Shown here piece after piece: positions 243-18,066 of a DNA stretch of 38,431 nucleotides. The stretch is from the IMG/VR virus record IMGVR_UViG_3300045988_147738, positions 1 through 38,431 of that record; one strand, written 5' to 3'. The notes beneath the pieces were generated by a model. That model was not told the origin of the DNA, searched no databases, and saw only the letters and a program-made list of their open reading frames with translations. This stretch comes from a virus. Numbering within the stretch: the first letter of the stretch is position 1; every line of letters starts with the position of its first letter. Made by a program: the position numbers and the translations under genes.

Positions 243-617
243 TTAAATGCGAGAAATCCAGTCGTTGAGGATTTCATCTACGGTTTTGCCCTTCTTAATC
301 GCACCCTTAGAGTTCGTCTCAAAACGGAAACCGGGGAGCTCAATCTTGAAGTTGCCTGGGTCCTTGTAGAATTTAAGGAAACTGTCCATTACCTTAATGA
401 CATCCTCGCCCTTCAACTCTGCGCCCTTATAGCCGACATAGGCCGCATAGTCGTTGATAGCATCGGCAACCGCTTCCGCTCGGGCCATCTTTTCCTTGTC
501 CTTCTTCTGGTCAGCATATGCCTTAGTGGCGTCATTCAGCATTGCAGTCATTTCCTTAGCAATATCCTCAGCGCTCTCGCCATTCATTAAACGCGTCAGA
601 ATATCGTTCTTATCCAT
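243..617 (-). CDS. hypothetical protein (124 aa)
   Basis: Intact ORF with ATG start, TAA stop and an AAGAGG ribosome-binding site. Two tandem TTGACA/TTGACT-N17/18-TATAAT promoters lie at 640-715 on the minus strand. Confidence 0.6.
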   Translation of the reverse strand: MDKNDILTRLMNGESAEDIAKEMTAMLNDATKAYADQKKDKEKMARAEAVADAINDYAAYVGYKGAELKGEDVIKVMDSFLKFYKDPGNFKIELPGFRFETNSKGAIKKGKTVDEILNDWISRI

Positions 618-847
618 TAAAATAACCTCTTTTCATTTTGTATACATATATTATACAAAAAATTTTTTTAAAAGTCAAGCGAGAAAAAAAATGGTTTTTT
701 TTATCATTATAACATAAATTTTTTTTTATGTCAAACCGGGCGGCATATGGGTACCGAGCGGGGCTCGGGTTTTGGGAAAATATGGGTGCATATGAGGGTC
801 GCTAGAATCACGGAAAATTTTCCATATGGGGTGGGAGAATGGAAATT

Positions 848-919
848 CGGACCGCAGCGCCCGCGCTCGGCCCGTTGTACCTCCCCTTTTATTATACCAC
901 ACCGGGCCCGCGTTGTCAA
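848..919. promoter_or_regulatory. promoter-hairpin module copy 1 (minus-strand TTGACA-N17-TGGTATAAT followed by an imperfect GC hairpin)
   Basis: Reverse complement of 891-919 reads TTGACAacgcgggcccggtgtggTATAAT. Hairpin at 848-875. A bidirectional terminator sits immediately to the right at 941-961. Confidence 0.6.
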
Positions 920-940
920 TAGGCAAAATGAACAAAAATT

Positions 941-961
941 AAGGGTGGATTTCTCCACCCT
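941..961. terminator. intrinsic terminator hairpin GGGTGGA-ttt-TCCACCC, with a T-run on the minus strand
   Basis: Perfect inverted repeat followed on the minus strand by TTAATTTTTGTT. Confidence 0.6.
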
Positions 962-1170
962 TAACAGAAGTTGTCAAAAATGTCATCAGACACTTGGCAC
1001 TCATACCAGCCGAAATATTCCCGGCGTGAGCGGAGTTCGCCCTCGATTTCATCCTCGTCTATGTCGGGATTTTGTATGTGGAGATACTGGATGACCCAGT
1101 GCTCGCTCGCGCATACATTCTCGTCAGCGTTGAAGTAAAATTTAGGGGTCACGATTATTCCTCCTCCCAC
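961..1170 (-). CDS. small acidic hypothetical protein; the likely GTG start at 1152 gives about 63 aa
   Basis: ORF ends in TAA. GGGAGGAGG ribosome-binding site 7 nt upstream of the GTG at 1150-1152, overlapping the stop of the upstream HD gene, which suggests translational coupling. Confidence 0.5.
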   Translation of the reverse strand: MGGGIIVTPKFYFNADENVCASEHWVIQYLHIQNPDIDEDEIEGELRSRREYFGWYECQVSDDIFDNFC

Positions 1171-1766
1171 GGCAGTTCGGGCGAAATTTCGTCCAGTTCC
1201 GCCTTGTCGTTATAGTCGGCGTTGATTGCTGGAATGTCGATAAACGCTCGGCTTGCCACATAGTCAGCCATGTGTACCAGTCTGTCGATAGGAGTGAAAG
1301 GTCTGTCCGCCTTGTCGGTAGTCCACTGACCCATGTGAGACTTGATGGCTTGCGTCAACTCATAGGGGCAGTCGCTCTCGAAAAACACCATCCATGTGCG
1401 GCAAACTTGGTCAGCGGCAATCGCGCCGTGCTTGGGGTACAACTCCTTGTCGAACTCGTGTAAGCCATACTTGGCTGTATCGTGGAGCAGACAGGCAACT
1501 CTTGCGTAGTCCTTGCGCTCGTCAGTGAGATACGCCCACTGGCTCATGCGGAGCAATTCCTCACAAAACCACGCGACCGCCTTAGTGTGGCGCACCAAAC
1601 CGCCCTCGCCTTGGCTCATAGCCGGATGGAACTTGCCGGAAGAACTCGCGCCGATAGTCCAGAAATAGTCGGGAACAATACAGTCGAAGTAGTAGCGCAC
1701 GAATGAGCGCAAATCCTCAGACTGAATGAACTCGATTTCGTGGTCAAAAAACTGGCTCTTATTCAT
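1155..1766 (-). CDS. HD-domain metal-dependent phosphohydrolase
   Basis: Motifs HTKAVAWF, LLHDTAKY and HMADYVASR match the HD superfamily H..HD..D pattern. Start chosen at MNKSQFF because of a GGAGG ribosome-binding site; the track's longer ORF runs into the promoter module. Confidence 0.65.
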   Translation of the reverse strand: MNKSQFFDHEIEFIQSEDLRSFVRYYFDCIVPDYFWTIGASSSGKFHPAMSQGEGGLVRHTKAVAWFCEELLRMSQWAYLTDERKDYARVACLLHDTAKYGLHEFDKELYPKHGAIAADQVCRTWMVFFESDCPYELTQAIKSHMGQWTTDKADRPFTPIDRLVHMADYVASRAFIDIPAINADYNDKAELDEISPELPWEEE

Positions 1767-1889
1767 AGATGCCTCCGTGCTGTTGGTGGGTTCCAGCTCC
1801 CTCAGATTGTTTATAGTATAGCGCATTTCGGGACAAAATGCAATAGTCAATTTATACAAATTTTCACCGGAAAAATTGTTGAAAATGTG

Positions 1890-1962
1890 TATTGACAAAA
1901 ATGCCGGGCGCCACAATCGTGAACGCCCGACCCATTATACCACAGTCAGAGGGCGTTGTCAA
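1890..1962. promoter_or_regulatory. promoter-hairpin module copy 2
   Basis: Minus strand reads TTGACAacgccctctgactgtggTATAAT, then hairpin GGGCG-ttcacgattgtg-GCGCCCG. Near-identical to copy 7 at 11226. Confidence 0.65.
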
Positions 1963-1983
1963 TAGTCAAATTGAATAAAAAAA

Positions 1984-2537
1984 TTATACTAAATTTTTTA
2001 TCATTTGTAAGGTTTTATCATACCCATATTTTTCAAGTAAACGAGTGATTTCTTTATCAAAAGGTTTTCTATTTTCAAAATTTAATTTTATATTTTCTTC
2101 ATTTATTACCCATCTTAAATTTTCAAGTCTATTATCTGTTTTTATTCCATTGATGTGGTCAACAACTAAATTGTTCGCATTTATATTTGTTTGAAAAGTA
2201 TTTAATACAAGTCTATGAATTCTATATTTTTTCTTATTTGGTAAATTTAAATATAAATATCCATTATTTAATACCCCTTTATAAAATACACCATCTTTTT
2301 TAATACGCCCCATTGTAGATATTAAATAGTCTGGTAAATCATAACACTGTTTCCATTCTTCATCAGGTAAATCCTAGGTTTCATCTTTTATAATATTATA
2401 ATAATTAGTGTGATTACGTTTTTCTATAAATACTAATTCAATTCCACGTCTTTTACAAAAAGCGATAAAAATATTTTTATCTACTCGTGAAGTTGTTAAA
2501 TTATATTTTTCTATAATTTCTTTTGTTGATAACATTA
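1984..2537 (-). CDS. HNH homing endonuclease (HNH_3-type) with one in-frame TAG at 2376-2378; AT-rich insert
   Basis: C-terminal region YRIHRLVLNTF...NLVVDHINGIKTDNRLENLRWV is a canonical HNH motif. Reading through TAG joins it in frame to an upstream 56-aa HTH-like region and an EEWK...GRIKKDG motif, with an AAGGAGG ribosome-binding site before the ATG at 2537. About 25% GC inside a 50% GC region. Confidence 0.7.
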
Positions 2538-2570
2538 TAGAACCTCCTTTAATATTCTATTATATTTAAA

Positions 2571-2628
2571 AAAACACACAAAATCATTACCCTGTTTTGT
2601 CCTGGGTAATGATTTTGTGTGTTTTATT
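2571..2628. terminator. long perfect hairpin (19-bp stem) flanked by an A-run and a T-run; bidirectional terminator
   Basis: ACACACAAAATCATTACCC-tgttttgtcc-tGGGTAATGATTTTGTGTGT. Confidence 0.7.
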
Positions 2629-3417: not shown

Positions 3418-3478
3418 AAAACACCGCCTTTTCAGATTTTAGAGGAGAGAGGGGGAGAGGTTATCTCCCCCTCTTGTC

Positions 3479-3976
3479 TCACTTGGCGGTGAAATACGCC
3501 TTGCGCTTATCCTCGATACGGTCTGCCTGACCGTCCAGCACCATCTGACGCACCAGAGAAGAAACCTTCTGATTGGACGCATCGGCGATAGCGGGGACAG
3601 ACTTCATCAGAGCGGACACGGTGTACTTCTCGCCCTTGTGGGCGTCCAGAAACGCCTTGATGTCAGCCTTGATACCCTCGTTTGCCACCTGCATGGCGGT
3701 CGGCTTCTTGTCCACGGTGTTCTTGCGGTCGAGCAGTTCCAGCTCGTGGTTCAGGAAGCCCGCCACATCAGCACCGGAAACCTTGACAGTGGCATCACCC
3801 TTGGAAATGTCATAGGTGGCGTCCATATCCACCTTGGACAGAATGGCGGTGAAATAGTCGCGCTTGGTCAGACGAACAGAGGAAGTGGTGTTAGTCATAG
3901 TATCAACCCTTTCTGCGTTTTTAGGTGTCGCCCACCATATTGTTGTTTCCCTCTTGGAACATCTATATTCTAACAC
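3479..3976 (-). CDS. hypothetical protein (165 aa), paralog of 5973-6374
   Basis: Shares LLDRKNTVDKKPT and SNQKVSSLVRQMVLDGQADRIEDKRKAYF with the paralog. A GC hairpin at 3440-3472 separates it from the downstream gene, as in the other copy. Confidence 0.6.
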   Translation of the reverse strand: MLEYRCSKRETTIWWATPKNAERVDTMTNTTSSVRLTKRDYFTAILSKVDMDATYDISKGDATVKVSGADVAGFLNHELELLDRKNTVDKKPTAMQVANEGIKADIKAFLDAHKGEKYTVSALMKSVPAIADASNQKVSSLVRQMVLDGQADRIEDKRKAYFTAK

Positions 3977-4163
3977 ATATCCGAAGCCTTGTCAAGACTT
4001 TTTTTCGGATTTGTGGAATTTTTTTAAGGTACACGCCCCGCCGGGAGGTCTTACCCTCTCCCTTGGAACAATTATATATTACCACACCCTTGGGCAAATT
4101 ACAATAGTCAATACTCACAAAAAAATGGGATTTTCAACATCTAAAATTTGTGCAAAAAAACAC

Positions 4164-4259
4164 TTGACAAAATTTGTGCCACGTGGTATAATGGAAATTT
4201 CGGGCGCCACATCCGTGAGCGCCCGACTCATTTTAACACATTTGAGCGCATTTGTCAAT
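4164..4259. promoter_or_regulatory. promoter-hairpin module copy 3: convergent plus and minus consensus promoters flanking a GC hairpin
   Basis: Plus strand reads TTGACA(4164)-N17-TATAAT(4187). Hairpin GGGCGCC-acatccgtga-GCGCCCG at 4202-4225. Minus strand reads TTGACA(rc 4254-4259)-N17-TAAAAT. Confidence 0.7.
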
Positions 4260-4299
4260 AGGCAATTTGCACAAAAATAAACCAGCGTAGTTGGCTACT

Positions 4300-4625
4300 A
4301 CGCTGGTTCCCCTGTTGATACTCGCCAGCCGTCCGGACAGCCAGCCCACTTCTACACAGCAGACCTAATCAGACGGGCGCAATGCCCACATAGATGGTCT
4401 TTCTCGGCACGCGGTGAATGTGGTTAGAACTTCGTACCCAGTCCCAATTTCTAACGAGGGGTTCAAGATAGCGTTTGAGAAGAAACTGTCGAGGGGACAA
4501 ACACTCTGTTAAAATCCATCTTGGCCGGGGAATTAAATATAATCAATCATTAAACTATCTAATCAAACAATGATTGACTACTAAGGTGGTCGATACAATC
4601 GCCATTTCATTTTTCTCACCTCACA
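4300..4625 (-). ncRNA. candidate noncoding RNA or long leader: an ORF-free interval between a consensus minus-strand promoter and a terminator
   Basis: No ORF longer than 10 codons has a ribosome-binding site. A minus-strand promoter at 4631-4660 (reverse complement TTGACAaatcgccccgcctgtgcTATACT) and the minus terminator hairpin at 4283-4310 bracket it. The plus-strand promoter of module 3 also reads into this interval. Confidence 0.35.
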
Positions 4626-4668
4626 ATATTAGTATAGCACAGGCGGGGCGATTTGTCAAGAGTTTTTT

Positions 4669-5352: not shown

Positions 5353-5429
5353 TCATCGCTCCTTTCAGTATCATCATTATAGCACATTACAGGAGAATTA
5401 CAATAGGCAAAATGCACAAAATTTTGCGG

Positions 5430-5523
5430 AAAAAATTTCTGAAATTGTATAATGTGCCGAAAACCGGGCGCCAGGACCGTAAGCGCCCGGCCAAATTATA
5501 CCACACGCGCTCGGATTTGTCAA
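5430..5523. promoter_or_regulatory. promoter-hairpin module copy 4
   Basis: Minus strand reads TTGACAaatccgagcgcgtgtggTATAAT, then hairpin GGGCGCC-aggaccgtaa-GCGCCCG. A plus-strand TATAAT lies at 5448. Confidence 0.65.
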
Positions 5524-5564
5524 TAGGCAAAATACACAAAAAAAATGAGGGAGATTTCTCTCCC

Positions 5565-5921
5565 TCACTTGCGCGGGCAACTAAGCACAACCTTATATTT
5601 TGTTCCATCAAGCGTGAATAAAAATTCGCGCTCCGCGTTGCTCACGTTCAGGTCAGTCGCGCCGTATGTGGTCAGTGTCTCGGTCAGCAAGGTGATAATG
5701 CCTTGCTTCGTAAGATTAGCCTTTCTTTCTCTTGGCGCGAACTTGTATGCGGTCGGCTGGCGTCCTACTCCACGCGCTTTCTTGCTTGCCTTTTCCTGTT
5801 CCTCGGTCAGCGGAAACGGATTGCCGCCCTTGTCGATGATAGCATCTTGAACAATAATGTCCTTTGCTTCGGCTTCGGTACAATCCAGCTTTCGCATGAG
5901 GTCGGCAACTCGGTCAGTCAT
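5565..5921 (-). CDS. hypothetical protein (118 aa), paralog of 3019-3417
   Basis: See the paralog. TGA stop. Confidence 0.6.
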   Translation of the reverse strand: MTDRVADLMRKLDCTEAEAKDIIVQDAIIDKGGNPFPLTEEQEKASKKARGVGRQPTAYKFAPRERKANLTKQGIITLLTETLTTYGATDLNVSNAEREFLFTLDGTKYKVVLSCPRK

Positions 5922-6374: not shown

Positions 6375-6454
6375 TTGGTTTTGAGGGCTTTACCCTCCTG
6401 ACATTATCTATTATAACAGCTTGCGCTGGGATTGTCAAGACTTTTTTTCAAAAT

Positions 6455-6900
6455 TCTTGATTTTTTTTAATAGTGTCAACAGGGGAACGTCCCACAAGTA
6501 TTCACAACGACTTACAACCTCGCCTGACGAATAAGGTGTTGCTTGTTGGTTCAACGTTTCCATGCGCATGGACGAACTGACCAATCCACTCACTTTTCGT
6601 TCATCGTTTGGGATTACTGCGCTGGTATAGGGCTTACTTCCTTTACTCTCTCACGGTTCGCGACCCGTGGATTTCTTGGGTGGGGCTGTTCCCCTCTTGA
6701 CATTATCAATTATAGCACAGGTGCTGGGGATTGTCAAGAGGGAATTTGCGGGTCAGTTACCGAGTTATCACACCCGCCAGCGTGGCTCTTGCGAGGCGAC
6801 TTGCTGTTCCCTCTTGACATTATGTAGTATAGCACAGGTGGGTATGGATTACAATAGGCAAACTATACAAGTTTCGGGAAAAATAAATAAAAAAATTTAT
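6455..6900 (-). ncRNA. ORF-free interval driven by two tandem minus-strand promoters; candidate noncoding RNA(s)
   Basis: Promoters at 6715-6745 (reverse complement TTGACAatccccagcacctgtgcTATAAT, embedded in the palindrome CCTCTTGACA-N28-TGTCAAGAGG) and 6810-6845. No ORF in 6470-6700 has a ribosome-binding site. The 16-mer GTTCCCCTGTTGAYAC is shared with the interval at 4307. Confidence 0.3.
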
Positions 6901-6912: not shown

Positions 6913-7007
6913 TTGACAAAATTGCTGGCGGGGTGTATAATGGTGAATTCCGGCCGAGACGCGCGAAATCGGCCGGCCATTATACCACACCCAGGCACAT
7001 TTGTCAA
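6913..7007. promoter_or_regulatory. promoter-hairpin module copy 5
   Basis: Plus strand reads TTGACAaaattgctggcggggtgTATAAT. Hairpin GGCCG-agacgcgcgaaat-CGGCC. Minus strand reads TTGACAaatgtgcctgggtgtggTATAAT. Confidence 0.7.
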
Positions 7008-7022: not shown

Positions 7023-7056
7023 AAAAAATGAGGGGAAAATCCCCTCATTTTTTTAG
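7023..7056. terminator. bidirectional intrinsic terminator
   Basis: aaaaaATGAGGGGAaaaTCCCCTCATttttttt. Confidence 0.7.
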
Positions 7057-7586: not shown

Positions 7587-7699
7587 AGTTTTTTCTCCTT
7601 TTCTGTTGGTGGGGCTTACCATCGTTTCCCCTACCTTGAATTTGTAATGTTATTATAGCATGGAATGGGGGCGTTGTCAACCCCCATTCCAAACTTTTT

Positions 7700-7912: not shown

Positions 7913-7979
7913 TTCGCTTACCTCCTTATTTCAGTATAGTCATTATACCACATGAGAAAGGGACTGTCAAGCCCCAATC

Positions 7980-8636: not shown

Positions 8637-8748
8637 TGTTCATTCTCCTTTTCTCTTGGTTGGGCTTACCATCGTGTCCCATACCTTAATTACATTACAT
8701 ATTATAGCAAATAGGGGCGAGATTGTCAACCCCTATTTGCTATTTTTT

Positions 8749-9194: not shown

Positions 9195-9344
9195 TAGTAT
9201 CAACTTCCTTTCTTGATTGTAATGCTATTATACAGGATAAAACGCGATTTGTCAACAGTTTTTTCAATTCTGCTCTTGGTCATTTCGCACAAATTTTCGG
9301 GATGCGCGCTTGGGCAAATTTGTTCAATTTACCTATTGACAAAA

Positions 9345-9430
9345 TTGCTGGCAGGGTGTATAATGGAAATTTCGAGCGCCAGGGCCGTGGGCGCTCGGCC
9401 GAGTATACCACAAATAGGGGCGTTTGTCAA
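9345..9430. promoter_or_regulatory. promoter-hairpin module copy 6
   Basis: Plus strand reads TTGACAaaattgctggcagggtgTATAAT. Hairpin GCGCC-agggccgtgg-GCGC. Minus strand reads TTGACA-N17-TATACT. Confidence 0.7.
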
Positions 9431-9442: not shown

Positions 9443-9475
9443 ACAAAAAAAATCTCCCAAATTTGGGAGATTTTT
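9443..9475. terminator. bidirectional terminator
   Basis: aaaaaaaaTCTCCCAaatttGGGAGAttttt. Confidence 0.7.
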
Positions 9476-9481
9476 CATTTA

Positions 9482-9857: not shown

Positions 9858-9923
9858 TTTGTTGTCCTCCCTTATTTGATGATACCATTCTAACACAGAG
9901 GGGCTGATTTGTCAACCCCTATT

Positions 9924-10394: not shown

Positions 10395-10536
10395 AATCAT
10401 CACTCCTTTTTCAGTATAATAATAATAACACATTTAATTGAAAATGTCAAGAAAAATTTTTGTCGTAGTTAAATTCTCACAAGATTAGATTTTTGTTCCG
10501 TGTAGTTAGTCAGGACTAAACCCAACAAGAGGGGCG

Positions 10537-10908
10537 TTAATGCCCCTCCGTCAGTTTATTATACATACTCCACAGCGTATCACAGGAATTGTTTGTGTTT
10601 TCAGCCATCCATACAATTTGTTCATCAGTCGGCAGGTATTTATCATTTTGAAAACCAAACCATCTATCACAGGACTGATACGCCTTATACTCGTCCTCTG
10701 TCAGCTTGCCACGCAACCACCAGTCCCAGCGGATAGAACTTATCAGAGTATACGCGCACGCGCCCGCGATAGTCAGGGTCAGGATGGCGACAGCCCCGTA
10801 CAGCACCAGCGTGGACTTTATCATACCATACACCAGCAGACCGAAACCGCACACAATGAGGAAATTGCACACCCATTTTTTGAGCGTCAGTTTCTGAAAA
10901 TCAGACAT
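10537..10908 (-). CDS. membrane protein (123 aa, 2 predicted transmembrane helices)
   Basis: AAGGAG ribosome-binding site. The stop codon lies inside the hairpin GAGGGGCgttaaTGCCCCTC. Confidence 0.5.
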   Translation of the reverse strand: MSDFQKLTLKKWVCNFLIVCGFGLLVYGMIKSTLVLYGAVAILTLTIAGACAYTLISSIRWDWWLRGKLTEDEYKAYQSCDRWFGFQNDKYLPTDEQIVWMAENTNNSCDTLWSMYNKLTEGH

Positions 10909-11119: not shown

Positions 11120-11225
11120 TGTTCTTACCTCCTTGTTTCAGTATAGCCATTATACCGTATTACGGGATAGAAGTCAATCGTCAAAATGCACAAAATTGCG
11201 GTGAAAAATTTGTGAAGTATACCTA

Positions 11226-11275
11226 TTGACAAAAATGCCGGGCGCCACAATCGTGAGCGCGCGGCCGAAAATGTC
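11226..11275. promoter_or_regulatory. promoter-hairpin module copy 7 (degenerate, no clear -10)
   Basis: TTGACAaaaatgccGGGCGCCacaatcgtgaGCGCgcggcc is nearly identical to copy 2. Confidence 0.5.
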
Positions 11276-11331
11276 AAGTGGAAAATTATACAAAAATTGG
11301 GCTGGATTTTTGTTCATCCAGCCCAAATGAT

Positions 11332-11538: not shown

Positions 11539-11601
11539 TCGGGGCGTCCTCCTTCATTTGATGTATTTATTATAACACACCCTAAAAGGTTTGTTAATAA
11601 T

Positions 11602-11636
11602 TAAAATGAAAAATGTGGGATTTCTCCCACATTTTT
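11602..11636. terminator. bidirectional terminator
   Basis: aaaaATGTGGGAtttcTCCCACATttttttt. Confidence 0.7.
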
Positions 11637-11867
11637 TTATTTATTTTCTAACCGCATTTTGTCAGACCCGATAAGCGCAGCCAGCAGGTTTGAGGTATCA
11701 CGGACTTGGCTCATAGAATACTCTTCGCCAATGTTGGAAATAGCGTATTCTTGTTCGTAGTCATACATCAAATCAAAAAGGTGAGAAATAACTTCGCGGG
11801 CGTCTTGGAGTTTGTCCTTTTCCTCTTGGGTGAGTTGAACCTGAACGTTTGAGGTAATGATGTTCAT
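11637..11867 (-). CDS. small acidic protein, member 1 of a tandem paralog triplet (76 aa)
   Basis: AAAAGGAGA ribosome-binding site. Pattern I..V.V.LT.EE...L.DA..V/I..L.DLMYD.E.EY is shared with the next two genes. Confidence 0.5.
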   Translation of the reverse strand: MNIITSNVQVQLTQEEKDKLQDAREVISHLFDLMYDYEQEYAISNIGEEYSMSQVRDTSNLLAALIGSDKMRLENK

Positions 11868-12358: not shown

Positions 12359-12429
12359 TTTGGCATTCTCCTTTCTCTTGGTATTATCTATTATAGCAGA
12401 AATGGGGCTTGTTGTCAAGCCCCAATTTT

Positions 12430-12931: not shown

Positions 12932-13049
12932 TGTGAATGACCTCCTTTAATTGATGGTATAAGTATAGCACACCTACTGGGCGTTGTCAACCGTCAAATT
13001 GCACAAATTTTGGGATAAAAAATTGTTGAAAATACCGAACACAAAACGC

Positions 13050-13145
13050 TTGACAAATTGGCTGGGCTGTGGTATAATGGTAAATTTCGCGCGCCAGGAC
13101 CGTGGGCGCGCGACCGAGTATAACACAAATGGGGCAGAATGTCAA
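13050..13145. promoter_or_regulatory. promoter-hairpin module copy 8
   Basis: Plus strand reads TTGACAaattggctgggctgtggTATAAT. Hairpin GCGCGCC-aggaccgtgg-GCGCGC. Minus strand reads TTGACA-N17-TATACT. Confidence 0.7.
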
Positions 13146-13223
13146 TAGGCAAAATCACCAAAATTTTCAACCGAATTATGGGCATAATGCCATATAAAAA
13201 AAACAAGGGCTTTCGCCCTTGTC

Positions 13224-13415
13224 TTAGTAGCCCCGCTTTTCCAGTCTTTCCAGCCTATCGGCGAGACACCGCGCCAGCAGTACCTTTTTCCATTTCATCA
13301 GCTCGGCTTTGTTGCCCTCGGTGTTCGCCCAGATGCCCCAAGTGATGCCCTCGTTGATGATTTCCGCTTTCTTCATACCCATCAGGTTTTCGAGATACTG
13401 TTCAAAGTTTGTCAT
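13224..13415 (-). CDS. hypothetical protein (about 63 aa)
   Basis: Start at MTNFEQYLENL with an AAGGAGG ribosome-binding site. The leader CATCAAATGAAGGAGG matches that of gene 11332-11538. Promoter reverse complement TTGACAaatcccgaaataggtgcTATAAT. Confidence 0.5.
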   Translation of the reverse strand: MTNFEQYLENLMGMKKAEIINEGITWGIWANTEGNKAELMKWKKVLLARCLADRLERLEKRGY

Positions 13416-13526
13416 AGTCTTGCGACCTCCTTCATTTGATGGTTTAATTATAGCACCTATTTCGGGATTTGTCAATACCTTTTTCAAAATTTTTTCAAAA
13501 AAAAATAGGGCTTTCACCCTATTATT

Positions 13527-13835: not shown

Positions 13836-13954
13836 GTGTGTATCTCCTTTGTTGTTTTGTTGTATTCATTATAACACGCTTATTTCATTTTGTCTATTGG
13901 CAAACTATACAAATCGGGATTGCGAATTTTGTGCGAAATTTTCGCATTTTTCTC

Positions 13955-14020
13955 TTGACAACTGGTGGGCTGCTGTGGTATAATATTTCGGGGCGCCACG
14001 TGCTTGATGAGCGCGACGAT
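13955..14020. promoter_or_regulatory. promoter-hairpin module copy 9, followed by an iteron-like TTTTAACAATCC at 14027
   Basis: Plus strand reads TTGACAactggtgggctgctgtggTATAAT, then hairpin GGCGCC-acgtgcttgatga-GCGC. Confidence 0.55.
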
Positions 14021-14064
14021 GCTCGTTAAAATTTTAACAATCCAATAGCAAAAAAATAGGACGC

Positions 14065-14253
14065 TTATTCAGCGTCCCAAGTCAGGATTTCCTCAGCGGT
14101 CAAGTCGTAAGGAGCGATTGCCCTTGCCAGTCTCTGTTCAGCGTCAGCGGAGAAATTCGACTGATAGTAGTAGTCCATCAGATTACAAATGCCAGCCCAA
14201 TCATCAGCGGGGATTTCGTCAATGATGTTCTCGATTTCATAGATGTTCTTCAT
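14065..14253 (-). CDS. small acidic hypothetical protein (62 aa)
   Basis: GAGGT ribosome-binding site. The stop lies inside the terminator hairpin GGACGCTtattcAGCGTCC. The promoter at 14275-14325 is a near-duplicate of the promoter at 13860-13910. Confidence 0.5.
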   Translation of the reverse strand: MKNIYEIENIIDEIPADDWAGICNLMDYYYQSNFSADAEQRLARAIAPYDLTAEEILTWDAE

Positions 14254-14367
14254 TTTGTGTACCTCATTTCTTAATTTCTGTATTCATTATAACACGCTTA
14301 TTTGTGTTTGTCAATAGTTTTTTTCGCATTTTATAAAAAAGATAACAGGACTTGCGCCCTGTTTATT

Positions 14368-14562: not shown

Positions 14563-14569
14563 TTCCTCC

Positions 14570-14808: not shown

Positions 14809-14879
14809 TATCGTCCTCCTTTGTTTTACTGTAATCATTGTAGCACACTTGGGGCAATTTGTCAAGAGGTTTTTTCAAA

Positions 14880-15735
14880 AATAACCTATTTATTTTCGGG
14901 ACAGAGATTGTGATTATTTTAACAATCGGATTTGCGATTTTTTTCTTTAACACTTTAACGTGGTGAAGTTAGGAGCGCGGCGTCCGTGTTCGGCATCCAA
15001 CAGCGAATGTGAAATTTTTAACAATTAAACAGCACATTCACCACATCCACACATTGTGAAATTTTTAACAATCTTGCTCGGTCAGCGAATGTATCAACTG
15101 TGCCGTGTGTATCCTCCTTGCTACCTGTGCAAGCGCACTCTTTACTCTCTTGCTCTTGGCTCTCACATTGTTAAACTTTTAACAATCTTGCTCGCTCCTC
15201 TGTGAGAGCTGTGTGTTGCGGGATGCGCGCTGTTCAGCGCTTGCGCCCTTGTGTTATTTGGCAATTGTGCGAGGGCTTATCCTTGGGCGATTAGGGCCGT
15301 TAACGATGATGAACCCAAAAGAGAAATAGAATACCTGCATTAGATTTGTTGGTGCGCGGTTCCCGGTGTACCCGACCGGTGGGAAGCGCGTCCGCTCTCT
15401 TATTGTTGGTCTACTCTCTCTCCCTACCTACTACCATAGCCCACCCCACCCCATACCCTACCATACCATACCATACTACTATACTACATTGTTAATACAT
15501 TAACAATGTATCTATCATTGTGTTGTGTTGTGTGTGTTGTTCTCTTTGTCTGTTGGTCGCTCGCTCGTTGGCTCGCTCTGCCTTGTCCACTGTGCCGTGC
15601 GTGTCCTTGTCCTCTCTTGGTTGAGTGATTGTTAAATTTTTAACAATCTCGCTACATCGTTAAATTTTTAACAATCTTGCTACATCGTTAAATTTTTAAC
15701 AATCTTAGGGCAACAAAAAACCTCCCTCAATGAGG
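14880..15735. promoter_or_regulatory. ORF-free iteron and palindrome region: candidate origin of replication, packaging site or partition site
   Basis: At least 7 copies of the TTTTAACAATC(T/C)TGCT iteron at 14913, 15016, 15063, 15172, 15641, 15667 and 15693; the last three are tandem with a 26-bp period. Perfect 24-bp palindrome ACATTGTTAATACATTAACAATGT at 15481-15504. A G-free C/A/T tract at 15417-15478 and a G/T tract at 15516-15557. GC-rich hairpins at 15200-15400. Confidence 0.5.
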
Positions 15736-15831
15736 GAGGCAGATGAGGCACATCAGGATGCCAGTACCCGCGACAACAGCGACCGCGGTAATGAAGCGCA
15801 CGACTTTGTAGATGATAGACATAGACTATTC
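15735..15831 (-). CDS. 31-aa hydrophobic peptide
   Basis: MSIIYKVVRFITAVAVVAGTGILMCLICLPH with a GGAGGA ribosome-binding site. Terminator hairpin CCTCCCTCAaTGAGGGAGG plus a T-run immediately downstream. Promoter TAGACA-N17-TATAAT at 15836-15880. Confidence 0.4.
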
Positions 15832-16250
15832 CTCCTTTGATAGTGCTATTATACCACGTTTCAGGATGCGTGTCTATTGGCAGAATACACAAATTTGTGA
15901 GAGATTTTTTGTGGAGTTTGTATTTATTGCGAATGAGGACCGCGACGCCCATTCGCGGTCCTGCGAGTTGAGGGGCTGTATTGGGGATGGTCTAGCCTTT
16001 CCACGTGCGCCAAGCCCAAGAAAGTCTCGATAGTGTTCAGATTTTTTCTCAGATAAAAACCGACCGGGGGGGGTGGGTTTCGGGAAAAAATTTTTTTTGA
16101 TTTTTATTTTTTTGTTTGGCTGGTACAAACTCTCACCAAAACTTTTTTCAATTCAAATAACGGTAAAAAATTACTTTTTAATTTTATTTCTACCAAAAAA
16201 CCAGATAGGAAAAAATAAAATTAATCCTATTAATGCTAATGCTTCAAGAA

Positions 16251-16394
16251 TCATTTTTTATTCTCCTTCTTAGGACGACCACGTTTAGGATTTTCGCCCC
16301 ATACAATTTGATGAACTGCTTTAGTAGCATAATAATTAGCTTTTTTCTGCATTTTAGCAGCGAGGGCATTTCCAAAGCTTTTATATTTAGGCAT
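16251..16394 (-). CDS. 47-aa basic peptide (not in the ORF track)
   Basis: MPKYKSFGNALAAKMQKKANYYATKAVHQIVWGENPKRGRPKKENKK. Its start overlaps the stop of the upstream AbrB-like gene (taATGtaatATG). Confidence 0.4.
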   Translation of the reverse strand: MPKYKSFGNALAAKMQKKANYYATKAVHQIVWGENPKRGRPKKENKK

Positions 16395-16395
16395 A

Positions 16396-16713
16396 TTACA
16401 TTACTCCATTAATAGCATCGGTTAATTTTTGAGGAATTTCAATTCCTAAATCATCTAATACTTCTTTAGCACGTAAATACTCTATTCTACTACCATATCG
16501 TTTACTCACTCGCACTCCAACATAAACTTCACCATTATATTCAATAGTATAAAATTCCATACGGTCGCCAGGAGTAATACCATATTTTTGTCTTAAATTT
16601 TTAGGAAAAACAAGACGGCCTAAACTATCAACCTAATGAATAGAACCTTCATTATGAACTATTGCTTGGCCTTCTCGCATTACAATATCAAAATAATTTT
16701 TTCCATCTTCCAT
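16396..16713 (-). CDS. AbrB/MazE-type (SpoVT-AbrB domain) DNA-binding protein with an in-frame TAG at 16633-16635
   Basis: VDSLGRLVFPKNLRQKYGITPGDRMEFY matches the AbrB swapped-hairpin motif (VDELGRVVIPIELRRTLGI...GD.LEIY). GGAGGAG ribosome-binding site. The domain is in frame only if TAG at codon 27 is read through. Confidence 0.55.
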
Positions 16714-16717
16714 AAAA

Positions 16718-17011
16718 TCACTTCTCCTCCATTATATGACATTTTTCTCCAGAAGATTTAATGATATGCCAAATATACTCACCATCATTAATAACTCCTA
16801 AATACTTGTCATTATTATTTACATATTTATCCAGTTCCCAACCTGTGCCAACAGCATTAATTTGAAAATATTTTTTGGGTGCTTTTTCATCATAAACTGC
16901 CCATACGCATGGATTATTATTTACATCTAATCCAGTAGATACAATATCAGTCAGATGATCCATAATATGAGTTGACCCTGGAGTTTCAATTAAATATTTA
17001 TAAATCTTCAT
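16718..17011 (-). CDS. hypothetical protein (97 aa)
   Basis: Intact ORF in the AT-rich region. Confidence 0.45.
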   Translation of the reverse strand: MKIYKYLIETPGSTHIMDHLTDIVSTGLDVNNNPCVWAVYDEKAPKKYFQINAVGTGWELDKYVNNNDKYLGVINDGEYIWHIIKSSGEKCHIMEEK

Positions 17012-17012
17012 A

Positions 17013-17339
17013 TTACTCCTCTTTTAACACTTCTGCCCAAACGCGCACATCTCTATCTTCTGCATTCATTACTCGATTTTTATTATATACAAAAATAGGG
17101 CAATGTAGTGGATAACAATTTAATCGCATAATTTTAATATCAATATTATCTACATAAATAATCATATTATCTTGAACATATGGCCAATAATCTTGACCTT
17201 TACCCAATAGAATACAAGTATATCCTGCTTCAGTTAATTGTTCAAGATTAATATATTGATTAAATGACACACCCATAAATAGAATAGTAGTGCCTCGTTT
17301 AAAATTTTTCAAAATATATTTAATCTATTTTTCAGTCAT
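17013..17339 (-). CDS. hypothetical protein (about 108 aa) with an in-frame TAG at codon 5 (17325-17327)
   Basis: The ATG at 17337-17339 is in frame with the track ORF through the TAG: MTEK-TAG-IKYILKNFKRGTT... Confidence 0.4.
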
Positions 17340-17522
17340 CACCATTCCACCCTTCCGGTAAAAATATATCTAAAATTCTTTGTAATAAATCACTCGCAGC
17401 AAATATTGGGCCACCAATAAAAAATATTAAACAAACAATTAATTTATTTTCACCGGCGCTTTAAATTGCATCAATATATTCAAACATTACTAATGCTGAA
17501 ATGATTATCCAAAAGATAACAA
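17340..17522 (-). other. possible short membrane-protein gene interrupted by an in-frame TAA (pseudogene, two tiny ORFs or sequencing error)
   Basis: The minus-strand frame gives VIFWIIISALVMFEYIDAI-TAA-SAGENKLIVCLIFFIGGPIFAASDLLQRILDIFLPEGWNGDD-TGA, hydrophobic throughout. Confidence 0.2.
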
Positions 17523-17921
17523 TTACATAGGCTCCCAAAAATATTCACCATCCTTATATTTATTTACTCGAACATTGTGGACTAATATTCTTATAGAGCC
17601 ATCTTCTTCCAGTTGATTGGCGTATCCAGGCGGTGGCGGGCCCTTGGACAAAACTGAATAAGCGATTATATTAGAATTTTCATAATTAGAGAAGTCTGTA
17701 ATTTTTGCGGATTCTTTCGCATTAAATTGGAGATGTAATAGCAAACAACAAGGGAAACTTTCTTCAATGTTATTTGCATCTCCATAATAATCTGCTATTA
17801 AATTATATTTTTGTTCAATGTTTTCAGGGTCAAGAAGTTTAGCGACTCCTTTTGTAAACAATATATTATATATAATAGATAATATTAATAATATACTTAA
17901 TATAATAATAGCAATTACCAT
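17523..17921 (-). CDS. membrane-anchored hypothetical protein (132 aa)
   Basis: N-terminal transmembrane segment MVIAIIILSILLILSIIYNILF. AAAAGGAGA ribosome-binding site. Promoter reverse complement TTGACAataaaaaaaattttttgTATTAT at 17945-17990. Confidence 0.5.
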   Translation of the reverse strand: MVIAIIILSILLILSIIYNILFTKGVAKLLDPENIEQKYNLIADYYGDANNIEESFPCCLLLHLQFNAKESAKITDFSNYENSNIIAYSVLSKGPPPPGYANQLEEDGSIRILVHNVRVNKYKDGEYFWEPM

Positions 17922-18036
17922 AAACTTCTCCTTTTATTTTTTATTATAATAATAATACAAAAAATTTTTTTTATTGTCAAATTTTTTCCAATTAATAGTA
18001 TCGTTTAAAAATTTTTTAAATGCATTTATTAAAATT

Positions 18037-18066
18037 TGACACCTGGAAAAATTTTTTGTATAATGA
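18037..18066 (+). promoter_or_regulatory. consensus sigma70-type promoter for the late/structural operon
   Basis: TTGACAcctggaaaaattttttgTATAAT, followed by a GGAGG ribosome-binding site and the ATG at 18090. Confidence 0.6.

What the first reader, a model, noticed from the sequence alone, without database searches (positions are those of the whole stretch)
243..18066. Dense array of at least 25 near-perfect TTGACA-N17-TATAAT promoters, many with the -35 inside the loop of the preceding gene's terminator hairpin
Almost every early gene has its own promoter about 30 nt upstream of an AAGGAGG ribosome-binding site. Examples are the promoters at 4631, 6399, 7660, 7935, 8711, 9225, 9895, 11140, 11560, 12395, 12950, 13440, 13860, 14275 and 14840. 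In several, TTGACA sits in the loop of a GC hairpin that is followed by a T-run on the plus (antisense) strand. So the same 40 bp could terminate antisense transcription and start sense transcription. Leader sequences are reused between genes, for example CATCAAATGAAGGAGG at 11546 and 13424, and the 13860 and 14275 promoter-leaders are near-identical.
Basis: seen in the sequence. Interest (0 to 1): 0.6.

Follow-up and report, generated by a model that had tools for sequence, protein, structure and literature searches.

The report
Phage early promoter–hairpin cassette array
A 16-kb early-gene block of a large gut phage carries about 35 near-perfect host-type promoters, some fused to hairpins; this design is already known from T4-type and SPO1 phages, but a conserved backward-facing promoter-plus-hairpin unit inside it appears undescribed.

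Summary
Window 243-18066 holds 20 perfect and 35 at-least-11/12 TTGACA-N16-18-TATAAT sites; shuffles give 0.01 and 0.39. The late half of the window is at chance. Twenty-nine sites lie on the gene (-) strand. Sixteen end 25-35 nt before a start codon that has an AAGGAGG-type ribosome-binding site. The consensus includes the Gram-positive TGTGnTATAAT extension.

The block is the standard-code, GC-rich early module of a large siphovirus-like phage of Bacillota whose late genes are TAG-recoded. The same array occurs in 18 related metagenomic contigs, in phAss-1 and in cultured Enterococcus phage H1.

It matches two described designs: the promoter-early stem-loop (PeSL) cassettes of T4-type phages and the SPO1 host-takeover module. 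Gene gain and loss between close relatives crosses over inside the cassettes.

The -35-in-hairpin claim holds for 5 of 29 promoters, not "many".

Each drives GGAAATTTC plus a covarying GC hairpin, back towards the upstream operon; four of them sit 37-38 bp face-to-face with a sense promoter. This unit recurs in about 45 phage contigs and matches no Rfam family. Its function is unknown; stable antisense RNA is my best guess. No transcription data exist.

The parts
243..18066 (-). Early-gene module: 35 standard-code ORFs (median about 98 aa) on the - strand. The core, about 740-16100, is GC-rich at 44-49%.
650..678 (-). Promoter, 11/12 (TTGACT/TATAAT), A7T6 spacer; 32 nt to the start of gene 617-243.
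706..734 (-). Promoter, 12/12, AT-only spacer; in tandem with the promoter at 678.
891..919 (-). Promoter, 12/12; followed by a purine-rich leader and the GC hairpin at 849-873.
1815..1843 (-). Weaker promoter (TTGCAT-N17-TATACT) in front of the HD-domain gene 1766-1155.
1934..1962 (-). Promoter, 12/12; followed at once by hairpin 1905-1929 and a T-run.
3967..3995 (-). Promoter, 11/12, with an A-tract upstream.
4076..4104 (-). Weaker promoter (TTGTAA-N17-TAATAT), 154 bp downstream of promoter 4258.
4230..4258 (-). Promoter, 11/12; sense partner of a face-to-face pair.
4164..4192 (+). Antisense promoter, 12/12; drives GGAAATTTC plus hairpin 4200-4226.
4200..4226 (+). GC hairpin between the two -10 hexamers (37 bp apart).
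4631..4659 (-). Promoter, 11/12; drives a roughly 340-nt stretch without a gene, ending at terminator 4279-4309.
5376..5403 (-). Weaker promoter, 10/12; in front of gene 5352-4669.
5495..5523 (-). Promoter, 12/12; followed by hairpin 5464-5490. The facing antisense promoter is degenerate (9/12).
5464..5490 (+). GC hairpin; covariance-model hit at 5448-5496 on the + strand.
6410..6438 (-). Promoter, 12/12; 35 nt to the start of gene 6374-5973.
6709..6737 (-). Promoter, 12/12; drives about 270 nt without a gene.
6826..6854 (-). Weaker promoter (TTGTAA-N17-TATACT), 153 bp downstream of promoter 7007.
6979..7007 (-). Promoter, 12/12; sense partner of a face-to-face pair.
6913..6941 (+). Antisense promoter, 12/12. 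Its predicted RNA runs to the two-way terminator at 7023-7053, about 105 nt.
6950..6976 (+). GC hairpin between the two -10 hexamers.
7652..7680 (-). Promoter, 12/12, with its -35 in the loop of hairpin 7661-7691; 65-nt conserved leader.
7661..7691 (.). 11-bp hairpin bracketing the -35, 9 nt after the stop of gene 7912-7700; T-run on the + strand.
   Evidence: (D13)
7942..7970 (-). Promoter, 12/12, with its -35 in hairpin 7960-7975.
7960..7975 (.). Short GC hairpin around the -35; the scan calls it terminator-like on the - strand.
8701..8729 (-). Promoter, 12/12, with its -35 in the loop of hairpin 8704-8743; 64-nt leader.
8704..8743 (.). 14-bp hairpin bracketing the -35; T-run on the + strand.
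   Evidence: (D13)
9227..9255 (-). Promoter, 12/12; 31 nt to the nucleotidase-like gene 9195-8749.
9402..9430 (-). Promoter, 11/12; sense partner of a face-to-face pair.
9336..9364 (+). Antisense promoter, 12/12. Its predicted RNA ends at the two-way terminator 9447-9476.
9373..9397 (+). GC hairpin between the two -10 hexamers.
9887..9915 (-). Promoter, 11/12, with its -35 in the loop of hairpin 9899-9920.
9899..9920 (.). 5-bp GC hairpin bracketing the -35.
10422..10450 (-). Promoter, 11/12.
11149..11177 (-). Promoter, 11/12.
11237..11265 (+). GC hairpin followed by a T-run on the sense strand, with no flanking consensus promoters; partial covariance-model hit.
11569..11597 (-). Promoter, 11/12; carries the reused leader CATCAAATGAAGGAGG.
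12390..12418 (-). Promoter, 12/12, with its -35 in hairpin 12403-12424.
12403..12424 (.). 8-9-bp hairpin containing the -35, 6 nt after the stop of gene 12753-12430; terminator-like on both strands.
12962..12990 (-). Promoter, 11/12, 155 bp downstream of promoter 13145.
13117..13145 (-). Promoter, 11/12; sense partner of a face-to-face pair.
13050..13078 (+). Antisense promoter, 12/12.
13087..13113 (+). GC hairpin. The crossover seen in the comparison with L001 lies here or in the adjacent -10.
13447..13475 (-). Promoter, 12/12; carries the reused leader.
13868..13896 (-). Promoter, 11/12.
13955..13984 (+). Antisense promoter, 12/12 (18-nt spacer); drives the divergent hairpin 13990-14022. It has no facing sense promoter.
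13990..14022 (+). GC hairpin next to the palindrome at 14023-14040.
14286..14314 (-). Promoter, 12/12.
14837..14865 (-). Promoter, 11/12.
15848..15876 (-). Promoter, 11/12; in front of a 31-aa hydrophobic ORF.
17952..17980 (-). Promoter, 11/12, A8T6 spacer; first unit of the - strand block.
18036..18064 (+). Promoter, 12/12; divergent from 17980, in front of the first TAG-recoded gene (18090-19154).
849..873 (.). GC hairpin downstream of promoter 919.
1905..1929 (.). GC hairpin followed by a T-run, directly after promoter 1962.
938..965 (-). Intrinsic-terminator-like site after gene 1152-961.
4279..4309 (-). Intrinsic-terminator-like site.
5543..5570 (-). Intrinsic-terminator-like site after gene 5921-5565.
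7023..7053 (.). Symmetric A6-hairpin-T6 terminator, usable in both directions.
9447..9476 (.). Terminator called on both strands.
10528..10549 (-). Intrinsic-terminator-like site.
11297..11326 (-). Intrinsic-terminator-like site.
11608..11637 (.). Terminator called on both strands.
13200..13225 (-). Intrinsic-terminator-like site.
13504..13523 (-). Intrinsic-terminator-like site.
14057..14079 (-). Intrinsic-terminator-like site.
14344..14363 (.). Terminator-like site on both strands.
15720..15740 (-). Intrinsic-terminator-like site.

Best explanation
This is the immediate-early transcription module of a large, siphovirus-like phage of Bacillota (Firmicutes).

1. Sense promoters (inferred). The host housekeeping-sigma (sigma A) RNA polymerase reads about 29 near-consensus promoters on the gene strand. 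Each has TTGACA(A), a 17-nt spacer, TGTGnTATAAT, and often an A-tract upstream. Each serves one small gene or a 2-3 gene operon.

2. Early translation (inferred). Leaders are short, roughly 22-25 nt, and carry an AAGGAGG-type ribosome-binding site. The early proteins can therefore be made in the standard genetic code before the TAG-recoded late genes can be translated.

3. Unit boundaries (inferred). Units are closed by intrinsic terminators. In five cases the terminator hairpin of one unit is fused with the -35 of the next promoter. The A-run 5' of that hairpin reads as a T-run on the opposite strand, so the cassette can also stop antisense transcription.

4. Recombination substrates (shown by comparison). 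The cassettes are 45-137-nt repeats, 60-90% identical. Recombination between them adds and removes gene cassettes, as described for PeSL elements of T4-type phages.

5. Antisense units (structure shown, function inferred). Five perfect promoters on the opposite strand sit just downstream of sense terminators. Each starts an RNA with GGAAAUUUC followed by a covarying GC hairpin, running back across the terminator and into the 3' end of the upstream operon. The hairpin would begin at most a few nt from the 5' end, although the start site itself is unmapped. I infer stable antisense RNAs, and/or polymerase collision, that insulate or time early operons. Four of the five face a sense promoter with 37-38 bp between the two -10 hexamers, so the two polymerases should exclude each other.
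For: Enrichment and strand bias. 20 perfect and 35 at-least-11/12 sites, against 0.01 and 0.39 in shuffles; 29 of the 35 are on the gene strand; the late region is at chance.

Promoter logo. TTGACAA and TGTGnTATAAT with upstream A-tracts, the same in the window (n=29) and in 171 distinct promoters of distant relatives. 25 of 29 have the TG extension.

Position. 16 of 29 end 25-35 nt before a start codon that has an AAGGAGG-like site. 33 terminator-like sites against 18.9 +/- 4.9 expected.

Conservation. 18 related loci from contigs of 29-201 kb, most of them over 100 kb and drawn from eight metagenome data sets, carry 19-43 such sites per locus of 12-21 kb, even at 61-68% identity of the marker protein. 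Cultured Enterococcus phage H1 has 18 in 7.5 kb, many with the -35 inside AAAAGGGG...CCCCTTTT hairpins. phAss-1 also has the array.

-35 hairpins. 72 of 517 promoters (14%) against 2.7% of random positions, with different stem sequences at different promoters.

Cassette shuffling. Breakpoints against five close relatives lie a median of 50 bp from a promoter, against 159 bp for random positions. 57% lie within 60 bp, against 23% (P about 0.0005). The window module 13230-12990 equals the left half of one L001 module joined to the right half of another that lies 1 kb away.

Antisense unit.
- Almost every antisense consensus promoter in the family is followed by GGAAATT(T)C and a GC hairpin.
- A covariance model finds 77 hits in 38 sources, and in the window and the loci oriented by the marker gene these all lie on the strand opposite the early genes.
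- 89.5% of cells are paired, against 68% in shuffles and 31-45% when the partner is slid; all 7 pairs have changes on both sides.
- There are 14 G-U pairs in the antisense-RNA orientation, against 2 A-C cells that would be G-U on the other strand.
- Downstream lies the reverse complement of the upstream gene's terminator.

Precedent. PeSLs have near-perfect TTGACA-N17-TATAAT promoters and five stem-loop positions, one of which overlaps the -35 (PMC2839356, PMC4122927). The SPO1 host-takeover module is a block of small early genes with strong promoters and ribosome-binding sites (PMC6873191).
Against: - There are no transcription data of any kind; activity, start sites and termination are all inferred from sequence.
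- Three of the five -35 hairpins lack a convincing U-tract in the sense direction, so they may terminate the upstream gene poorly.
- Ten strong sense promoters have no gene directly downstream.
- Breakpoints falling near promoters is partly expected, simply because both are intergenic.
- The host is unknown. It is inferred from the ribosome-binding sites, the -16 motif and terminase relatives in Enterococcus, Geobacillus and Bacillus phages.
- The covariance-model alignment is fitted to the model, which inflates the percentage paired.
- The proposed role of the antisense unit has no direct support.
Confidence: 0.8

Rival explanations
1. The inverted repeats around the -35, and the GC hairpins after the -10, are DNA operators. 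A dimeric phage or host regulator binds them to switch early promoters off. They are not RNA terminators or RNA hairpins.
For: The repeats overlap core promoter elements, where repressors commonly bind. A separate 18-bp palindrome family is clustered in the same block. A distinct promoter class has a conserved A7T5 spacer.
Against: Stem sequences differ from promoter to promoter and from genome to genome while pairing is kept. That is the signature of a folded strand, not of one protein's recognition site. G-U pairs outnumber A-C cells 14 to 2 in one orientation, an asymmetry that double-stranded DNA cannot show. Cultured phage H1 has canonical A-run/hairpin/T-run terminators at the same position.
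Confidence: 0.08
2. The main job of the array is to soak up host RNA polymerase. Dozens of perfect promoters, some facing each other and some leading nowhere, would starve host genes. Expression of the small ORFs would be secondary.
For: 10 of 29 strong sense promoters and all 5 internal antisense promoters have no gene directly downstream. Face-to-face pairs with 37 bp between the -10 hexamers should trap polymerase in mutually exclusive complexes (geometry inferred). Many have a G-rich discriminator after the -10 (TATAATGG), which by my own knowledge favours long-lived open complexes.
Against: Most promoters are placed precisely in front of conserved ORFs with strong ribosome-binding sites. 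The hairpin downstream of the antisense promoters covaries as RNA, so the transcript is under selection. One phage genome adds few sites compared with the host's own promoters, at least before replication.
Confidence: 0.08
3. The antisense promoter-hairpin units are not regulators of early operons. Either they are origins or primers for DNA replication, where transcription from a strong promoter into GC-rich DNA forms an R-loop. Or they are decoy RNAs against a host defence, for example CRISPR-repeat mimics.
For: In the window and in phage H1, one unit lies next to a long non-coding stretch full of palindromes and iteron-like repeats. The sense-strand form GTCGCGCGCC-CACGG... loosely recalls the 5' half of type I-C CRISPR repeats (my own recollection, not tested).
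Against: There are 5-6 units per genome, always just downstream of a sense terminator, which is not an origin-like distribution. Stems vary freely between copies, which is unlike mimics of one repeat.
Confidence: 0.1
4. The pattern is an artefact: a chance low-complexity match, or a chimeric assembly that joined a GC-rich fragment to an AT-rich phage.
For: GC content jumps from about 47% to about 30% at about 16100.
Against: Shuffles give 0.01 perfect sites against 20 observed. The same GC-rich block, flanked by AT-rich DNA, is present in 17 of 18 related loci, which come from independent contigs of eight metagenome data sets.
Confidence: 0.01

Closest known systems
PeSL (promoter-early stem-loop) cassettes of T4-type phages (Arbiol et al. 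2010, PMC2839356; Comeau et al. 2014, PMC4122927)
   Same: - Near-perfect TTGACA-N17-TATAAT promoters joined to stem-loop terminators.
- Stem-loops that can overlap the -35, lie upstream, or lie just after the -10.
- Cassettes between small genes of unknown function in a plastic region.
- Insertions and deletions between close relatives, with crossovers inside the cassettes.
   Different: - The host is Gram-positive and the phage is siphovirus-like, unrelated to T4, so this is an analogue and not a homologue.
- The promoters carry the Gram-positive TRTG -16 motif.
- The array fills one contiguous 16-kb GC-rich block.
- It contains conserved antisense promoter-hairpin units and face-to-face pairs. 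I found no mention of these in the two PeSL papers (the word 'bidirectional' does not occur in PMC2839356).
- Mini-circles were not tested.
SPO1 host-takeover module (Stewart et al. 1998, as summarised in PMC6873191)
   Same: A 12-kb block of about 24-26 small early genes in a Bacillus phage, arranged in many short operons, each with a strong sigma A promoter and a strong ribosome-binding site.
   Different: - No homology to the SPO1 module proteins was found. The only SPO1 match is the HD-domain protein, to gp32.6, which lies outside that module.
- Location in a terminal redundancy could not be tested.
- SPO1 is a myovirus with standard code throughout.
Convergent-promoter devices and cis-antisense RNAs of temperate phages (186 pR/pL face-to-face promoters; lambda OOP RNA against cII). 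Own knowledge; 186 context in PMC3675496 and PMC5001618.
   Same: A promoter fires against the direction of a neighbouring operon. Transcripts overlap, giving transcriptional interference or antisense control.
   Different: Here the device is present 5-6 times per genome, in a lytic-type early block. It has a fixed 37-bp spacing between -10 hexamers and a conserved 5' hairpin. No repressor or switch context is visible.
5'-terminal stem-loop stabilisers of Bacillus subtilis mRNAs (aprE, ermC and SP82 leaders; own knowledge)
   Same: A strong hairpin that would lie within a few nt of the RNA 5' end, the arrangement that protects against 5'-end-dependent decay in Bacillota.
   Different: Those examples stabilise coding mRNAs. 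Here the hairpin heads a non-coding antisense RNA. The 5' end itself is only predicted.

Membership tests
Housekeeping-sigma (sigma 70 / sigma A) promoters | -35 TTGACA and -10 TATAAT separated by 17 +/- 1 bp | tested here: met
   35 sites with at least 11/12 matches, 20 of them perfect; 0.39 and 0.01 expected.
Housekeeping-sigma (sigma 70 / sigma A) promoters | Gram-positive extension TRTGnTATAAT and an A/T-rich upstream region | tested here: met
   25 of 29 have TG. The logo reads TGTGnTATAAT with A-tracts in the window and in 171 promoters of relatives.
Housekeeping-sigma (sigma 70 / sigma A) promoters | Placed upstream of genes, in the right orientation | tested here: met
   29 of 35 are on the gene strand. 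16 end 25-35 nt from a start codon with a ribosome-binding site, and 3 more end 64-68 nt away.
Housekeeping-sigma (sigma 70 / sigma A) promoters | Transcription starts there with host holoenzyme | not testable with these tools
   No RNA data are available; needs start-site mapping or in vitro transcription.
PeSL cassettes | Strong early promoter physically combined with a stem-loop terminator | tested here: met
   5 hairpins bracket the -35, 9 GC hairpins follow a -10, and about 13 terminators lie within about 50 nt upstream of a promoter.
PeSL cassettes | Repeated, mutually similar copies between small genes of unknown function | tested here: met
   Repeat families D1-D13: 45-137 nt, 60-90% identical, 3-14 copies. 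Most ORFs have no Pfam or PHROG function.
PeSL cassettes | Gene gain and loss between close relatives with crossovers inside the cassettes | tested here: met
   The window module is a hybrid of two L001 modules that flank a 1-kb insert. Breakpoints are enriched near promoters.
PeSL cassettes | Excised mini-circles formed by recombination between cassettes | not testable with these tools
   Needs inverse PCR on infected cells or virions.
PeSL cassettes | Belongs to T4-type myoviruses (the family in which PeSLs were defined) | tested here: not met
   The terminase is closest to Enterococcus, Geobacillus and Bacillus siphovirus-type phages and to phAss-1. It works like a PeSL but is not a homologous member.
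SPO1 host-takeover module | Block of small early genes, each operon with a strong sigma A promoter and ribosome-binding site | tested here: met
SPO1 host-takeover module | Homology to SPO1 gp37-gp60 | tested here: not met
   No PHROG or Pfam link was found. The only SPO1 hit is gp32.6 (HD domain, 35% identity). Only 10 of the 35 ORFs were scanned.
SPO1 host-takeover module | Lies in the terminal redundancy of the genome | tested here: inconclusive
   Related loci lie at contig ends in some contigs and mid-contig in others. True genome ends are unknown.
Face-to-face promoter switch (phage 186 type) | Two convergent promoters with overlapping transcripts | tested here: met
   Four pairs in the window with 37-38 bp between the -10 hexamers. 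The same spacing (34-39 bp) is seen in relatives.
Face-to-face promoter switch (phage 186 type) | Single copy at a lysis-lysogeny decision, controlled by a repressor | tested here: not met
   There are 5-6 copies per genome, and no integrase or repressor context in the block.
RNA anti-CRISPR (solitary repeat unit) | Close similarity to a CRISPR repeat of the host | tested here: inconclusive
   The genome scan found only single hits and no arrays, and it was cut at 120 rows. Stems differ between copies.
Any Rfam family | Match to a curated covariance model | tested here: not met
   No hit at gathering score. The best E-value in the relaxed search is 0.05, at terminators.

The most novel reading that the evidence does not exclude
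The antisense unit is an undescribed, widely conserved phage regulatory RNA element. It consists of a perfect sigma A promoter, the start sequence GGAAAUU(U)C, and a covarying GC hairpin at the RNA 5' end. It sits just downstream of the terminator of an early operon and points back into it. It is present 5-6 times per genome, in about 45 large phage contigs and in cultured Enterococcus phages. In one lineage it has been locked face-to-face with a sense promoter at a fixed 37-bp spacing. The reading is that it makes abundant, stable antisense RNAs, or colliding polymerases, that set the level or timing of early gene expression. This would be a layer of control not reported for PeSL-type or SPO1-type early modules.
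Probability: 0.35. Interest if true: 0.65.

Novelty: new variant of a known kind. Interest (0 to 1): 0.45.

Why it matters
Most of the finding is a clean new example of a known design: strong host-type promoters fused with terminators, one per small early gene, which also serve as recombination points. It extends that design from T4-type phages of Gram-negative hosts to a large family of gut phages of Bacillota whose late genes use TAG as a sense codon.

This gives a concrete picture of how such a phage separates its two programmes. The early genes are in standard code, GC-rich, read from host promoters and translated through strong ribosome-binding sites. The late genes are AT-rich and recoded.

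The array also marks the early gene set of a mostly unannotated phage group. It supplies about 30 natural, very strong promoter-terminator parts for Gram-positive hosts.

The antisense promoter-hairpin unit is the part that could be new biology. It can be tested directly, because cultured Enterococcus phages (H1, VRE9, EF1) carry it.

Tried and rejected
- **Nucleotide search against 50,697 phage records.** The early block found nothing, and the late half found only a 180-bp match. Relatives had to be found through proteins.
- **Rfam and tRNA scans.** No Rfam hit at gathering score or in the relaxed search; no tRNA genes.
- **14-nt DNA pattern for the motif upstream of the -35 (TTGCCTATTGACAA).** It was too unspecific: 120 mostly unrelated contigs.
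- **CRISPR-repeat mimicry of the GC hairpin.** It is uninformative, leaning negative.
- **Operator reading of the -35 inverted repeats.** Rejected because the stems covary rather than keep one sequence.
- **Type I toxin-antitoxin reading of the antisense units.** Only one of the five upstream genes (9694-9482) is a small hydrophobic protein, so I rejected it as a general explanation.
- **Literature.** No description of promoters in the phAss-1 paper or in the stop-codon-recoding paper. No paper found on antisense units in these phages.
- **An apparent ORF-free gap at 12430-12754.** This was my own mis-annotation. It holds a 107-aa gene at 12753-12430.

Full report

Yes. A consensus scan of 1-19500 finds 97 promoter-like sites against 44.5 +/- 5.3 in shuffles, and 33 terminator-like sites against 18.9 +/- 4.9.

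With a stricter count in 243-18066 there are 20 perfect TTGACA-N16-18-TATAAT sites and 35 with at least 11 of 12 matches. Two hundred dinucleotide-preserving shuffles give means of 0.01 and 0.39. The other half of the window (18067-38431) is at chance: 4 sites against 1.66 expected.

Twenty-nine of the 35 lie on the - strand, which is the coding strand of this block. The reused leader CATCAAATGAAGGAGG occurs exactly at 11548-11563 and 13426-13441. The promoter-leaders at 13861-13897 and 14279-14315 are 89% identical.

**2. Anatomy of the block**

The block holds 35 ORFs on the - strand with a median length of about 98 aa. They read in the standard code and use stop codons 24 TAA, 9 TGA and 1 TAG among the 34 ORFs counted.

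Sixteen of the 29 sense promoters end 25-35 nt before a start codon with an AAGGAGG-like site. Three more have conserved 64-68-nt leaders. Ten precede hairpins, tandem promoters or stretches without a gene.

The promoter logo is TTGACAA-N-TGTGnTATAAT with upstream A-tracts. By established knowledge this is the strong sigma A form of Gram-positive bacteria, with its -16 TRTG motif. Twenty-five of 29 carry the TG extension.

I see three upstream contexts:
- an A-tract, such as GAAAAAAACTC;
- a conserved TTTGTGCAnTTTGCCTA motif;
- a GC hairpin with the -35 in its loop.

**3. The hairpins that hold the -35**

Five promoters (12418, 9915, 8729, 7970, 7680) have an inverted repeat bracketing the -35. 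The repeat starts 0-20 nt after the stop codon of the preceding gene.

On the sense strand an A-run precedes the hairpin, so on the + strand the hairpin is followed by a T-run. Examples are GGAATGGGGGCGTTGTCAACCCCCATTCC-AAACTTTTTTT and the 8704-8743 hairpin followed by TTTTTTTT (family D13).

Only two of the five (12403-12424 and 7960-7975) also look like terminators in the sense direction.

Across the window and 18 related loci, 72 of 517 promoters (14%) have such a bracket, against 2.7% of random positions. The stems differ in sequence (GGGGCTT, GGGGGTT, ATGGGGA, GGGCGGGGC and others). That argues for a folded strand rather than a protein site.

In cultured Enterococcus phage H1 the same position holds textbook two-way terminators, AAAAGGGG-TTGACAA-CCCCTTTTTT.

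It applies to 'several' promoters, not 'many'.

**4.

Six perfect sites lie on the + strand. One (18036) starts the late operon.

The other five (4164, 6913, 9336, 13050, 13955) are inside the early block. Four of them face a - strand promoter with 37-38 bp between the two -10 hexamers, across a GC hairpin. The fifth (13955) has the hairpin but no facing promoter. If transcription starts at the usual 7 nt after the -10 (an inference), the two start sites are about 24 bp apart. Two polymerases could then not sit there together.

In all family members, almost every antisense consensus promoter is followed by GGAAATT(T)C and a GC hairpin. A narrow pattern for this unit found 50 stretches in about 45 viral contigs. 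In these, 43 of 53 hits have TTGACA at exactly 17 nt, and all but one of the 34 distinct sequences fold into a GC hairpin.

A covariance model built from 23 copies finds 77 hits (E at most 0.01, rough) in 38 sources. In the window and the loci oriented by the marker gene these always lie on the strand opposite the early genes. The evidence for a conserved structure is:
- 89.5% of cells are paired, against 68% in shuffles and 31-45% when the partner is slid;
- all 7 pairs show changes on both sides;
- G-U pairs outnumber A-C cells 14 to 2 in the antisense-RNA orientation;
- that orientation folds better in 30 of 43 copies, against 9 for the other strand.

So the selected structure is an RNA hairpin that would lie close to the 5' end of the antisense transcript; the start site itself is unmapped.

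Downstream of the hairpin lies an A-run, then the reverse complement of the upstream gene's terminator, then the gene's 3' end. Where that terminator is symmetric (7023-7053 and 9447-9476), the predicted RNA is about 105-110 nt. Only 9 of 34 distinct units in the wider set have a facing sense promoter. The antisense unit is therefore the ancestral core, and the face-to-face pairing is a lineage feature.

Nothing in Rfam matches.

**5. What genome is this?**

Reading TAG as sense raises + strand ORF content beyond 18000 from 2336 to 6501 aa. It restores a terminase, a portal and a tape-measure protein of more than 1183 aa with 32 in-frame TAGs.

The terminase is 52% identical to those of Enterococcus phages VRE9_4, H1 and EF1. 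It is 50% identical to Geobacillus virus E3 and 44% to phAss-1. phAss-1 is filed under a 'code 15 clade' and is predicted to infect Clostridia (PMC10607447).

The early block is 44-49% GC and the rest is 26-33%. The same contrast is seen in 17 of 18 related loci, so this is not an assembly chimera.

Few early proteins have recognisable domains. Those found are an HD phosphohydrolase, a 5'-nucleotidase-like protein, an HNH endonuclease and a weak T5orf172 match.

**6. How it most likely works**

Inferred from sequence:
- Host sigma A polymerase fires from the sense promoters as soon as the DNA enters the cell.
- Short leaders and strong ribosome-binding sites give fast translation in the standard code, before the recoded late genes can be translated.
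- Terminators, some merged with the next -35, keep units separate in both directions.

Shown by comparison: the cassettes are recombination substrates.
- Breakpoints against five relatives that are 85-95% identical lie a median of 50 bp from a promoter, against 159 bp at random. 57% lie within 60 bp, against 23% (P about 0.0005).
- The window module at 13230-12990 is the left half of L001 2975-3215 joined to the right half of L001 3990-4235. The crossover falls in the hairpin or the antisense -10, and removes a 1-kb cassette.

Inferred with low confidence: the antisense units make stable RNAs. A 5' hairpin within a few nt of the end is a known stabiliser in Bacillus. These RNAs, or colliding polymerases, would limit, insulate or time the upstream operon.

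**7. Comparison with what is known**

The closest match is the PeSL cassette of T4-type phages. PeSLs have near-perfect sigma 70 promoters joined to stem-loop terminators, and five stem-loop positions, one of which overlaps the -35. They lie between small orphan genes and mediate modular shuffling (PMC2839356, PMC4122927). Every sequence-level PeSL feature is met here. Descent from T4-type phages is not, so this is an analogue.

The SPO1 host-takeover module is the closest Gram-positive analogue (PMC6873191). No protein homology to it was found, and the terminal-repeat location could not be tested.

I found no description of the promoters in the phAss-1 paper or the recoding paper. I also found none for the antisense unit.

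**8. Verdict**

The kind of element is already known. This is a new lineage-specific variant in a TAG-recoded phage family of Bacillota.

The part worth further work is the conserved antisense promoter-hairpin unit, together with its face-to-face form. All functional statements await transcript mapping, which is feasible in the cultured Enterococcus relatives.

Noticed in passing
window 18067-38431 (+ strand): The late genes are TAG-recoded. Reading TAG as sense raises ORF content from 2336 to 6501 aa and restores a terminase (20395-22128, 11 TAGs), a portal (22706-24169) and a tape-measure protein (34883 to the window end, 32 TAGs). The two ORFs at 25792-27851 and the ORF at 31960-33039 (functions not assigned) contain no TAG. 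No suppressor tRNA lies in the window.
   Followed up: partly
window about 740-16100 against the rest: The early block is 44-49% GC, while both flanks and the late genes are 26-33% GC. The same contrast occurs in 17 of 18 related loci. An early module in standard code that is 15-20 GC points richer than the recoded remainder of the genome is unusual and unexplained.
   Followed up: partly
window 14023-15702: The 18-bp palindrome TTGTTAAAAATTTAACAA occurs at 8-9 sites (0.4 expected), including three copies at 28-bp spacing at 15629-15702. Enterococcus phage H1 has an analogous cluster (TGTGAATTTTTTCACA) in its long intergenic stretch (L139 24000-24800). These could be operators or an origin.
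   Followed up: partly
window 14807-15726: A 920-nt stretch has no ORF. It contains purine-rich and CA-rich low-complexity tracts, a (CCATA)5 repeat at 15451-15476 and G-rich runs, lying between the palindrome copies.
   Followed up: no
window 4279-4631 (- strand): Promoter 4659 drives about 340 nt that end at a strong terminator. The stretch contains only a 9-codon ORF (MKWRLYRPP) behind a ribosome-binding site, and has no Rfam match. It is a candidate non-coding RNA or leader-peptide element. In relative L006 it is absent, together with gene 5352-4669.
   Followed up: no
window 3940-3966, 4050-4075, 6385-6409, 6680-6708, 6800-6825 (- strand): Five promoters share a leader that begins (A/T)ATAATGTCAAGAGGG(A/G)AAC, a purine-rich sequence resembling a ribosome-binding site right at the predicted 5' end. 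Three of them stand in tandem upstream of gene 6374. Relatives differ in the copy number of this promoter-leader unit.
   Followed up: no
window 7595-7651 and 8645-8700 (- strand): Two genes (7586-7053 and 8636-7980) share a conserved leader of about 56 nt, AAGGTAGGGGAAACGATGGTAAGCCCCACCAA. It has a possible small hairpin and no Rfam match.
   Followed up: no
window 1985-2631: This AT-rich insert carries an HNH endonuclease gene (1984-2313) and a 53-aa ORF. It is absent from relatives L001, L003, L005 and L006 and sits next to promoter module 1962. It is a likely homing-endonuclease insertion.
   Followed up: partly
window 3019-3940 against 5565-6374; also 11637-12358: A two-gene unit is duplicated, with 76-78% DNA identity over parts. 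Separately, three 76-aa paralogues stand in tandem in one operon.
   Followed up: partly
window 650-678, 706-734, 17952-17980, 18036-18064: This is a separate promoter class whose spacer is a conserved A-run followed by a T-run, as in TTGACA-nAAAAAAATTTTTnTG-TATAAT. It sits at both edges of the GC-rich block. The same class drives many genes beyond the early block in phAss-1 (L140, 8 copies) and L014 (6 copies). It may be a differently regulated, delayed class.
   Followed up: partly
window 34185-34213 (+ strand): This is the only perfect consensus promoter in the late region. It lies 29 nt upstream of gene 34243-34767, ahead of the tape-measure gene.
   Followed up: no
window 1-79: A perfect 36-bp tandem repeat (2.2 copies) lies at the very edge of the window. 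The related contig behind L001 ends within about 70 bp of this point. This may mark a genome end or an assembly break.
   Followed up: no
window 9482-9694 and 15727-15822 (- strand): These are very hydrophobic small ORFs (70 aa and 31 aa), each with its own consensus promoter. The 70-aa ORF lies directly upstream of an antisense unit, an arrangement that recalls type I toxin-antitoxin pairs. The other antisense units do not share this.
   Followed up: no
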